From IMG/VR virus record IMGVR_UViG_2660238499_000001: DNA of 8,922 bases, one strand, 5' to 3'. The notes beneath the pieces are model-generated. The model searched no databases, had not been told where the DNA came from, and saw nothing but the letters and a program-made list of their open reading frames with translations. The first letter of the stretch is position 1, and every line of letters begins with the position of its first letter. This DNA is from a virus. Taxonomy: Duplodnaviria; Heunggongvirae; Uroviricota; Caudoviricetes. The position numbers and the translations under genes are program-made. Below, piece after piece: positions 7,575 to 8,922 of the stretch.

Positions 7575-8004
7575 CTGACACATCCTGTGCGAGATTTATT
7601 ACGTAACTTCTGCGGATTTGCTGAGTAACAGGGAAAATCCGATACAACGGGTTAATGAACGAGTCGCCATGCGTAACTATGACGTTGAAATGCCACAGTC
7701 GCTCTCCTTTACCCATATATTCAGTGGGTATGTACAACCATTCACTGTTTTCGCCCTGTTCAGCCGACGTCAGACAACGTTGTTCGCCTTCAATCACTGT
7801 CGTCGGCTTCTGAACATCGCGGATCCAATATCTGACCGTTGCGCCGCGCAAAAACGGGAATTTAGACCGGTATTTGAACGGCACCCGGATGAAATCCGGT
7901 TTAATTTCCACATCACCAAGTTCTAAATGCGTGATGTCCTTGCGTTTTAGCAAATAGCGATCGGCTAAGGCTAACGCAAGAACGCATACACCCCAGCCAA
8001 TCAT
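7561..8004 (-). CDS. lydB: LydB-like lysis regulator (antiholin-like), 147 aa
   Basis: ATG overlaps the holin-like gene stop (ATGA at 8001-8004). One N-terminal hydrophobic segment (MIGWGVCVLALALA), then a soluble domain. Position after the holin gene matches the P1 lydA-lydB arrangement as recalled. Confidence 0.65.
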   Translation of the reverse strand: MIGWGVCVLALALADRYLLKRKDITHLELGDVEIKPDFIRVPFKYRSKFPFLRGATVRYWIRDVQKPTTVIEGEQRCLTSAEQGENSEWLYIPTEYMGKGERLWHFNVIVTHGDSFINPLYRIFPVTQQIRRSYVINLAQDVSDDEK

Positions 8005-8330
8005 TTCCCGCCTCCCTTTTTCACCAAACTTGTAAGAACATTCAGAATGCTATCGATATTCACTCGTTTCATCCCTGAAATCACCTCATGACCGTTATTG
8101 CTGGCTATCGTTACCATTAAGTACGTAATTGATAACTCCCAGCCCTCGTGTTGCCCCAATAGGTACGCCACCGCGCCAGCTGTCACTGCAACAAAGATCT
8201 CCGTAACCAATCCCAACAAATTGCCAGACTGGCGACCGTCTCGGACATCCATCAGGAACGTGCCTATCCCACCAATTACTGAAAGCAGGAGCGCAATAGC
8301 AACTGGAGCTAATTCCTGTGTGTCAAGCAC
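8001..8330 (-). CDS. lydA: Holin, LydA-like (109 aa), GTG start
   Basis: Two to three predicted transmembrane segments and a charged C-terminus (KKGGGK). AGGAGG lies 5 nt upstream of the GTG at 8328-8330. Confidence 0.75.
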   Translation of the reverse strand: MLDTQELAPVAIALLLSVIGGIGTFLMDVRDGRQSGNLLGLVTEIFVAVTAGAVAYLLGQHEGWELSITYLMVTIASNNGHEVISGMKRVNIDSILNVLTSLVKKGGGK

Positions 8331-8335
8331 AAGTT

Positions 8336-8357
8336 CCCTCCTACGTTGTCAGGAGGT
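8336..8357 (-). promoter_or_regulatory. Possible RBS-sequestering hairpin at the lydA-like start
   Basis: On the mRNA, CCUCCU (complement of 8351-8356) can pair with the SD AGGAGG (complement of 8337-8342) across an 8-nt loop. Six-bp stem; stability not calculated. Confidence 0.3.
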
Positions 8358-8397
8358 AATGGTATGCAAAGTAACTTCTCAACCGGTCATTTGTTGC

Positions 8398-8679
8398 TTA
8401 AGAGGCATTTCTATTGAGGTACGAATCGATAATCCTTTGTAACTTTTCAAGAATGAGCCTGTTATTGATGCTGCAAATAATAGTCACGCAATTCTGAAGA
8501 CTTTCATCCATACCCTTATATTCCGCGAAATACATGCCTATAAAGCCTGCAAGTACGGCAGCAATACACTCGGCCATCAATTGCCTGCATGACGCTTCGT
8601 AACGTTTTTCACGAACCCCATTCAGAAACGAATGCACCCCGCCAAGGATGGAGAGGAGCATTATTGTGAAATCAAACAT
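8398..8679 (-). CDS. Holin-like membrane protein, paralog of the LydA-like protein (LydC-like), 93 aa
   Basis: SD GAGG 8 nt upstream of the ATG at 8677-8679. Aligns with the LydA-like protein (LLS.IGG...FL..VR and E.I.AV.AG motifs). First gene of the operon. Confidence 0.6.
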   Translation of the reverse strand: MFDFTIMLLSILGGVHSFLNGVREKRYEASCRQLMAECIAAVLAGFIGMYFAEYKGMDESLQNCVTIICSINNRLILEKLQRIIDSYLNRNAS

Positions 8680-8715
8680 AACTATTTCCTCAATAGTGAA
8701 TTAAATCTCATTGGG

Positions 8716-8754
8716 AAACGGTATGTACTTTGTGATTTCCACACATACTGGTTT
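8716..8754. promoter_or_regulatory. Imperfect dyad symmetry in the divergent lydC-like/cin-like intergenic region; candidate operator
   Basis: Arms aaacggtatgt (8716-8726) and acatactggttt (8743-8754) are near reverse complements (one indel), separated by 16 bp. Confidence 0.3.
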
Positions 8755-8762
8755 TTGTTAAT

Positions 8763-8809
8763 TAAAATCAGCAGCTTGCTATAAATAACGATAGTGAGCA
8801 GAAAATATG
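8763..8809 (+). promoter_or_regulatory. Candidate sigma70-like promoter for the cin-like gene
   Basis: TATAAA at 8782-8787 with TTAATT 16 nt upstream, ~20 nt before the cin ATG. Weak match, by eye only. Confidence 0.2.
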
Positions 8810-8865
8810 CTAATAGGCTATGTACGCGTATCAACAAATGAACAAAACACTGCTTTACAACGAAA
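8807..8865 (+). pseudogene. cin: 5' fragment of a Hin/Gin/Cin-family serine invertase gene (cin-like), truncated by IS26
   Basis: Translation from the ATG at 8807-8809 gives MLIGYVRVSTNEQNTALQRK, the canonical invertase N-terminus including the catalytic Ser. The frame runs into the IS26 repeat at 8866 and stops at 8882-8884. Confidence 0.75.
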
Positions 8866-8922
8866 GGCACTGTTGCAAAGTTAGCGATGAGGCAGCCTTT
8901 TGTCTTATTCAAAGGCCTTACA
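8866..8922 (-). mobile_element. IS26 (IS6 family) terminal end, truncated by the window edge; tnp26 would be on the minus strand
   Basis: 8866-8922 (ggcactgttgcaaagttagcgatgaggcagccttttgtcttattcaaaggccttaca) matches the IS26 terminal inverted repeat and adjacent tnp-distal sequence as I recall it. Confidence 0.9.

What the first reader, a model, noticed from the sequence alone, without database searches (positions are those of the whole stretch)
8807..8922. cin-like invertase gene cut by IS26 after about 20 codons
The invertase reading frame runs directly into the IS26 terminal repeat at 8866. Unless the rest of cin continues beyond the IS, the invertase is inactive and the tail-fibre orientation it would switch (the invertible C segment in P1) is locked. 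IS26 often brings resistance modules into P1-like phage-plasmids, so the sequence beyond the window may carry cargo.
Basis: partly seen in the sequence, partly recalled or inferred. Interest (0 to 1): 0.55.

Follow-up and report, generated by a model that had tools for sequence, protein, structure and literature searches.

The report
IS26-truncated cin invertase stub
A copy of the mobile element IS26 has cut off the phage P1 tail-fibre switching gene cin after its 19th codon; this is real but is an ordinary, already described kind of insertion-sequence damage in P1-derived plasmids.

Summary
Window 8807-8865 equals the first 59 nt of P1-type cin (19 codons + 2 nt). Window 8866-8922 is 57/57 identical to an IS26 end, beginning with the 14-bp terminal repeat GGCACTGTTGCAAA. 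The fused frame stops at 8882-8884, giving a 25-aa peptide, so the invertase is dead whatever follows. The cut also falls inside the cis-acting recombinational enhancer that P1's annotation places at cin nt 19-90; only 41 of 72 bp remain, so rescue by an invertase supplied in trans is unlikely too. The junction is real: an independent metagenome contig (L008) has it exactly. It is absent from PLSDB, 5,426 complete E. coli genomes, GTDB representatives, IMG/VR and JGI metagenomes, as is the reciprocal junction in the three collections searched for it, so what lies beyond the IS26 stays unseen. The P1-like DNA is a 7.6-kb block (hxr-ddrB-ddrA-darA-hdf-lydB-lydA-lydC-cin') between IS1/IS3 and IS26. 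Its closest complete relatives are IS26-scrambled mosaic plasmids. Siblings carry other IS26 breakpoints in cin (nt 26; nt 264 in the published pTZ20_1P). "Locked tail fibre" and "resistance cargo" remain untested. Low interest.

The parts
8807..8865 (+). cin' : first 59 nt (19 codons + 2 nt) of the P1-type Cin serine invertase gene
   Evidence: 59/59 identical to cin of P1 NC_005856 and of pECTOK-001_2/pHNTH9F11-2; identity ends at 8865
8807..8884 (+). fused reading frame cin'-IS26: 25-aa peptide MLIGYVRVSTNEQNTALQRKALLQS, then TAG
   Evidence: translation
8825..8865 (.). retained 41 bp of the 72-bp cis-acting enhancer of Cin-mediated inversion; the other 31 bp are replaced by IS26
   Evidence: P1 annotation 'enhancer' 31678..31749 mapped onto the window
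8858..8865 (.). CAACGAAA, the 8 bp abutting IS26; would be the target-site duplication if the other IS26 end adjoins cin nt 52-561
   Evidence: sequence; reciprocal junction not found in three collections
8866..8922 (-). 57 nt of an IS26 end: terminal inverted repeat 8866-8879, tnp26 stop codon at 8918-8920 on the - strand; the element runs off the window
   Evidence: 57/57 identity to a full IS26 in pECTOK-001_2; sibling L008 continues 529 nt as IS26 with 3 mismatches
8685..8798 (+). cin promoters P2cin (8685-8711) and P1cin (8736-8768) and the RBS (8796-8798), retained
   Evidence: mapped from P1 annotation; 3 mismatches to P1 over 8685-8865
8398..8679 (-). lydC (93 aa holin-family gene), intact, divergent neighbour of cin
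   Evidence: ORF list; P1 annotation; Pfam Phage_holin_3_3 on the identical product
1391..8330 (-). intact P1 darA operon block: hxr 1391-1699, ddrB 1689-4676, ddrA 4689-5054, darA 5051-6970, hdf 6972-7583, lydB 7561-8004, lydA 8001-8330
   Evidence: ORF lengths equal those of P1; 98.35% identity to P1 over window 1292-8865
533..1292 (-). IS1-like element forming the left boundary of the P1-like block; degenerate insB, no flanking duplication
   Evidence: IS1-family matches over 505/533-1290/1297; sequence; all differences from L008 lie here
1..410 (+). right end of an IS3-family element (transposase C-terminus, ORF 12-377); runs off the window
   Evidence: 100% match to NZ_CP034659.1 'IS3 family transposase'; siblings without it match from 411

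Best explanation
An IS26 transposition event joined the tnp26-distal end of IS26 to cin nt 59. Shown: the junction is real and heritable. It leaves a 19-codon stub that still has its promoters and RBS but encodes only a 25-aa peptide, and it removes 31 of the 72 bp of the enhancer that Cin-type invertases need in cis. The inversion system is therefore disabled in both its protein and its cis element. Inferred: IS26 moves by replicative cointegrate formation or intramolecular transposition, and this plasmid lineage is full of IS26 copies that have already cut, inverted and deleted the P1 backbone. The remainder of cin, cixL, the C segment and the tail-fibre genes are therefore most likely not simply 820 bp further on. 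They have probably been moved elsewhere in the replicon next to another IS26 copy, or deleted. That would leave the 7.6-kb hxr-to-cin' block as an IS-bounded remnant of a P1-like phage-plasmid inside a mosaic Escherichia plasmid. My probability that cin and its enhancer are inactivated by a genuine IS26 junction is about 0.95. My probability that the rest of cin is displaced or deleted rather than contiguous is about 0.6-0.65.
For: Junction anatomy. Enhancer position: P1 annotation mapped. The related Hin enhancer has a Fis-binding site at each end (PMC3798978). Independent occurrence: L008 has the exact junction and differs from the window only inside IS1 plus one SNP, and L015 matches the window up to 8863. 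Ancestral state: siblings L012/L014 (2 mismatches over about 8.4 kb) have intact cin followed by cixL, a C segment, cixR, Sc, R, gp16 and bplA. IS-driven decay of the same block in near-identical relatives: cut at window 1970 by IS26 (NZ_CP034659.1), at 7715 (L010), at 8496 by IS1 (L007), at 8832 = cin nt 26 by the other IS26 end (L006/L009/L011/L018, with a scr operon beyond), and an internal deletion in pECTOK-001_2. IS26 mode of action in the lineage: in NZ_CP034659.1 both halves of ddrB keep the 8-bp ACGAAAGA next to opposite IS26 ends but lie about 38 kb apart and inverted. Neither this junction nor its reciprocal occurs in any complete record searched. Published precedent: pTZ20_1P, with IS26-truncated cin and deleted C segment/tail fibres (PMC6906374; breakpoint at nt 264 verified).
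Against: Nothing beyond 57 nt (window) or 529 nt (L008) of this IS26 has been seen, so a simple insertion with the rest of cin right after it is not excluded. Near-identical siblings with intact cin do carry tail genes, so the source could still be a largely complete P1-like phage-plasmid. Absence of the reciprocal junction from complete-genome collections is uninformative, because the forward junction is absent from them too.
Confidence: 0.65

Rival explanations
1. Simple insertion. One IS26 copy sits in cin of an otherwise intact P1-like phage-plasmid, flanked by an 8-bp CAACGAAA duplication, and the rest of cin and the C segment follow directly. The tail-fibre segment is frozen in whichever orientation it had.
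For: The junction has the form expected for one side of such an insertion. The ddrB::IS26 event in NZ_CP034659.1 shows that 8-bp duplications are kept in this lineage. Siblings L012/L014 with intact cin have tail genes downstream.
Against: No reciprocal junction in PLSDB, complete E. coli genomes or GTDB representatives. The complete relatives of the IS3-bearing sublineage are IS26-scrambled mosaics of 190-454 kb. The neighbouring nt-26 junction and the published nt-264 junction are both followed by foreign DNA, not by cin.
Confidence: 0.2
2. Cargo insertion. The IS26 is the first of two or more copies bounding a resistance or other accessory module inserted into cin, with or without loss of P1 DNA on the far side.
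For: pTZ20_1P has exactly this layout: delta-cin, then IS26, then a dfrA12-aadA2-cmlA1-aadA1-qacL-sul3 region, then IS26, then mer genes. The nt-26 siblings have an IS26-scr sucrose operon module.
Against: No sequence beyond the IS26 is available for this junction. In the nearest siblings the adjacent module is metabolic, not resistance. This rival overlaps the best explanation, since cargo and deletion usually come together.
Confidence: 0.12
3. Assembly artefact. The contig was wrongly joined to an IS26 end at a repeat boundary.
For: The window ends inside a multicopy repeat, a place where short-read assemblies break.
Against: The same junction occurs base for base in an independent ENA assembly that continues 529 nt into IS26. 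A third assembly stops 2 nt before the junction, as expected at a true repeat boundary.
Confidence: 0.02

Closest known systems
pTZ20_1P (MN510447), a P1-like IncY plasmid of E. coli, Venturini et al. 2019 Sci Rep (PMC6906374)
   Same: lydC followed by a truncated cin abutting IS26. The authors attribute it to IS26-mediated rearrangement and deletion and infer loss of tail-fibre switching.
   Different: The breakpoint is cin nt 264, not 59. The opposite IS26 end (tnp26-proximal) faces cin. The enhancer at nt 19-90 is retained there. Its far side is known (40-kb resistance/F-tra region, then pacA); here it is unknown.
Sibling plasmids CP076767.1 / CP076793.1 and contig AASOCG010000041.1 (L006, L011, L018, L009)
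   Same: 100% identical to window 411-8832: the same P1 block, also ending in an IS26-truncated cin.
   Different: The breakpoint is cin nt 26 with the other IS26 end, the IS3 element is absent, and beyond IS26 lies the scrK-scrY-scrA-scrB-scrR sucrose operon.
Phage P1 cin / C-segment inversion system (NC_005856), Din family of Fis/enhancer-dependent serine invertases (Hin, Gin, Cin, Pin)
   Same: Promoters, RBS and the first 59 nt of cin, with the divergent lydC neighbour, at 98-100% identity.
   Different: Only 19 of 186 codons and 41 of 72 enhancer bp remain. No Resolvase or HTH_7 domain, no cix sites and no C segment are present in the window.
IS26 intramolecular/replicative rearrangements in multi-IS26 plasmids (established IS26 biology, from my own knowledge: Harmer & Hall; He et al. 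2015)
   Same: A single IS26 end abuts a truncated gene in an IS26-rich plasmid lineage. A sister plasmid shows the split-gene, 8-bp duplication and inversion footprint.
   Different: For this particular junction the partner junction has not been seen, so the specific route (insertion, deletion or inversion) is inferred.

Membership tests
IS26 (IS6/IS26 family insertion sequence) | 14-bp terminal inverted repeat GGCACTGTTGCAAA at the element end | tested here: met
   Window 8866-8879
IS26 (IS6/IS26 family insertion sequence) | Subterminal sequence identical to IS26, including the 3' end of tnp26 | tested here: met
   57/57 identity to the IS26 copy of pECTOK-001_2; the tnp26 stop codon falls at 8918-8920 on the - strand
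IS26 (IS6/IS26 family insertion sequence) | Complete 820-bp element with an intact tnp26 | tested here: inconclusive
   The window ends after 57 nt. Sibling L008 with the same junction continues 529 nt as IS26 (3 mismatches) and then its contig ends.
IS26 (IS6/IS26 family insertion sequence) | 8-bp target-site duplication at the other end | not testable with these tools
   The other end is outside the window. The predicted reciprocal junction is absent from PLSDB, complete E. coli genomes and GTDB representatives.
Cin / Din-family serine DNA invertase gene | N-terminal catalytic motif (YVRVST) and identity to P1 cin | tested here: met
   59/59 nt identical to P1 cin; MLIGYVRVSTNEQNTALQR
Cin / Din-family serine DNA invertase gene | Full-length product of about 186 aa with Resolvase and HTH_7 domains | tested here: not met
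   Only 19 codons remain, and the fused frame stops after 25 aa. Intact siblings are 186 aa with PF00239 + PF02796.
Cin / Din-family serine DNA invertase gene | Intact cis enhancer within the 5' part of the gene | tested here: not met
   41 of 72 bp are retained
Cin / Din-family serine DNA invertase gene | cix recombination sites flanking an invertible tail-fibre segment | not testable with these tools
   cixL would lie at window-equivalent 9362-9381, beyond the IS26 junction and the window end
P1-like phage-plasmid (Punavirus) | Collinear P1 backbone | tested here: inconclusive
   Only hxr to cin' (window about 1294-8865) is P1-like, at 98.35% identity to P1, and it is bounded by IS1/IS3 and IS26. 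Completeness of the source replicon is unknown.

The most novel reading that the evidence does not exclude
IS26 junctions recur in and just after cin in P1-derived plasmids: nt 26, 59 and 264, plus 82 and 144 nt after the stop codon. This recurrence might not be sampling bias. It could reflect targeting of the Fis-bent enhancer/cix region by IS26, or selection for loss of Cin activity once a P1-like element is locked into plasmid life.
Probability: 0.07. Interest if true: 0.4.

Novelty: new member of a known kind. Interest (0 to 1): 0.13.

Why it matters
It matters little beyond annotation. It marks this P1-derived block as defective for tail-fibre switching and flags an IS26 boundary where accessory DNA may be attached. 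The useful refinement is that the cut removes part of the cis enhancer as well as the gene, so an invertase supplied in trans should not restore inversion. The set of near-identical siblings with different IS breakpoints also gives a small, clean series showing stepwise IS26/IS1 erosion of a P1-like phage-plasmid inside large mosaic plasmids.

Tried and rejected
(1) The top PLSDB hits H1/H2 looked like 100%/99% full-length matches, but each is two joined pieces. In both, cin is intact and IS26 lies 144 or 82 nt after its stop codon, so the junction differs. (2) RCS47's 'Cin part 1/part 2' is a frameshifted cin followed directly by tail-fibre genes, with no IS26 in it. (3) Searches for the exact junction found nothing: megablast with a query too short in IS26 to seed on IS26 alone (complete E. 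coli genomes, PLSDB), and exact-pattern scans of genome, viral and metagenome contigs. (4) Searches for the reciprocal junction found nothing. (5) Exact-protein look-ups with DdrB and LydC produced the informative siblings but no contig reading through this IS26. The junction-spanning antisense ORF 8682-8912 is not on record. (6) A hybrid outward promoter at the IS26 end was considered, but the scan found none there; the one promoter-like site (8834-8807, - strand) is within chance expectation. (7) CP076767.1 and MN510447 could not be fetched under those accessions; the latter worked as NZ_MN510447.1. (8) I did not use the large protein-homology, structure or RNA tools, because the question is one of DNA junctions.

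Full report
**1. Observation**

The + strand frame that starts at ATG 8807 reads MLIGYVRVSTNEQNTALQR. Aligned with phage P1 (NC_005856) and with two plasmids that carry an intact 561-bp cin, the window is identical through ...CAACGAAA at 8865, which is cin nt 59.

From 8866 it reads GGCACTGTTGCAAAGTTAGCGATGAGG.... This is 57/57 identical to one end of a complete IS26 in pECTOK-001_2.

It is the end next to the tnp26 stop codon, which lies at window 8918-8920 on the - strand. The transposase gene therefore reads toward cin'. The fused frame stops at TAG 8882-8884, giving a 25-aa peptide.

"About 20 codons" is 19 codons plus 2 nt.

**2. The junction is real**

The exact DdrB protein of the window is on record in 444 blocks of the public assembly index, mostly on 5-10 kb contigs. 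Three kinds of contig are informative:
- **L008:** ENA contig ERZ1744996 NODE_915 has the identical junction and continues 529 nt into IS26 before the contig ends. Outside the IS1 copy it differs from the window by one SNP, so the junction is shared by descent.
- **L015:** contig DADCOE010000049.1 equals window 1-8863 with one mismatch and stops 2 nt short of the junction.
- **Collections without it:** the junction is absent from PLSDB, 5,426 complete E. coli genomes, GTDB species representatives, IMG/VR and JGI metagenome contigs.

**3. What the cut removes**

P1's annotation places the enhancer of Cin-mediated C-segment inversion inside cin, at 31678-31749. This is cin nt 19-90, equivalent to window 8825-8896. 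Only 41 of these 72 bp remain.

In the related Hin system the enhancer has a Fis-binding site at each end (PMC3798978). From established knowledge of this invertase family, it acts in cis. The event therefore disables both the recombinase and its cis element.

The cin promoters and RBS are retained (8685-8798; 3 mismatches to P1 over 8685-8865), so only a meaningless peptide can be made.

**4. Context**

P1 homology covers only window about 1294-8865 (98.35% to P1). It comprises hxr, ddrB, ddrA, darA, hdf, lydB, lydA and lydC, all full length, followed by cin'.

To the left lie a degenerate IS1-like copy (533-1292) and the end of an IS3-family element (1-410). Relatives show ompC-IS5-SprT-hsdR beyond that.

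Near-identical siblings give the ancestral state and a series of decay products:
- **Intact state:** L012 and L014 (2 mismatches) have intact cin followed by cixL, a variable C segment, cixR, Sc, R, gp16 and bplA.
- **Cut at window 1970:** by IS26, in NZ_CP034659.1.
- **Cut at window 7715:** in L010.
- **Cut at window 8496:** by IS1, in L007.
- **Cut at window 8832 (cin nt 26):** by the opposite IS26 end, in L006, L009, L011 and L018. In L006, L011 and L018 (plasmids CP076767.1 and CP076793.1) a sucrose operon follows the IS26.
- **Internal deletion:** in pECTOK-001_2.

**5. How IS26 acts in this lineage**

In the 454-kb IncHI1B/IncY plasmid NZ_CP034659.1, the two halves of ddrB each keep the 8-bp ACGAAAGA next to opposite IS26 ends. 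They lie about 38 kb apart and in opposite orientation. This is the footprint of IS26 transposition with inversion.

That plasmid still has an intact cin, C segment and tail genes on one of the pieces. By analogy, the partner of the window's junction would be IS26 end + CAACGAAA + cin nt 60 onward. It may lie 820 bp away, elsewhere in the replicon, or may have been deleted. It was not found in PLSDB, complete E. coli genomes or GTDB representatives. Because the forward junction is absent there too, this absence says nothing either way.

**6. Comparison with what is known**

Venturini et al. 2019 (PMC6906374) describe the P1-like plasmid pTZ20_1P. [quoted passage not shown] The truncated cin flanks a 39,980-bp IS26-bounded resistance/F-plasmid region, and the authors infer loss of tail-fibre switching.

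I verified its breakpoint: cin nt 264 joined to the tnp26-proximal IS26 end, followed by a sul3-type integron region. The window is therefore a further instance of a published kind, with a new breakpoint and a different IS26 orientation. Unlike pTZ20_1P, it also loses part of the enhancer.

**7. Verdict**

- **Certain:** inactivation of cin.
- **Untested for this junction:** "locked tail fibre" and "resistance cargo".

The context favours an IS-eroded P1 remnant in a mosaic plasmid, with the rest of cin and the C segment displaced or deleted (about 0.6-0.65). A simple insertion is less likely (about 0.2). This is ordinary insertion-sequence biology, so interest is low.

The only mildly unusual point is the number of independent IS26 junctions in and just after cin: nt 26, 59 and 264, plus 82 and 144 nt after the stop codon. 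My searches were biased toward finding these, so I give a real hotspot or selection effect a low probability.

Noticed in passing
window 533-1292: The IS1-like copy is only 95-97% identical to common IS1. It has a 10-nt indel near 892, a broken insB (107-aa ORF 582-905) and no 9-bp flanking duplication (TAAAACACG vs AGAAATGGC). Sibling L008 carries a different IS1 allele at the same right-hand boundary, with a different left flank (OLD-family ATPase + UvrD-helicase genes, Gabija-like).
   Followed up: partly
window 1-410: This is the right end of an IS3-family element inserted between ompC and the IS1 copy. It is present in L003, L007, L010 and L015 and absent from L006, L009, L011, L012 and L014, so it marks a sublineage. 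The element was not identified to name.
   Followed up: partly
L006/L009/L011/L018 (equivalent to window 8832): A second, independent IS26 junction at cin nt 26 uses the opposite IS26 end, on DNA 100% identical to window 411-8832. It leaves only 8 bp of the enhancer. A scr sucrose operon follows the IS26 in L006, L011 and L018 (plasmids CP076767.1/CP076793.1); L009 is a short contig that ends inside the IS26.
   Followed up: yes
L003 21962-21990 and L016 3900-3965 (NZ_CP034659.1; window 1963-1970): ddrB is split by IS26, with the 8-bp ACGAAAGA kept at both junctions. The halves lie about 38 kb apart and inverted. The same plasmid has ISSen4 between lydA and lydC, and an intact cin, C segment and tail module.
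   Followed up: yes
L001 21069-21213; L002 13069-13151: In pECTOK-001_2 and pHNTH9F11-2, IS26 sits 144 and 82 nt after the cin stop codon, that is, just inside the C segment. These are further independent IS26 junctions in the same few hundred bp.
   Followed up: partly
L026 9172-10001; L013 4953-5870: L026 (DAPKXW010000016.1) has no called cin; a 1394-aa tail-fibre gene and its chaperone gene lie next to lydC. L013 is cin-like only to nt 208, then diverges, with a 186-aa resolvase gene called on the opposite strand. These may be other variants of the switch region.
   Followed up: no
window 1391-8679: All eight P1 genes of the hxr/darA/lyd block are full length despite the surrounding IS damage. 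The exact DdrB protein is on record in 444 index blocks, so this IS-bounded block is widespread in draft assemblies.
   Followed up: partly
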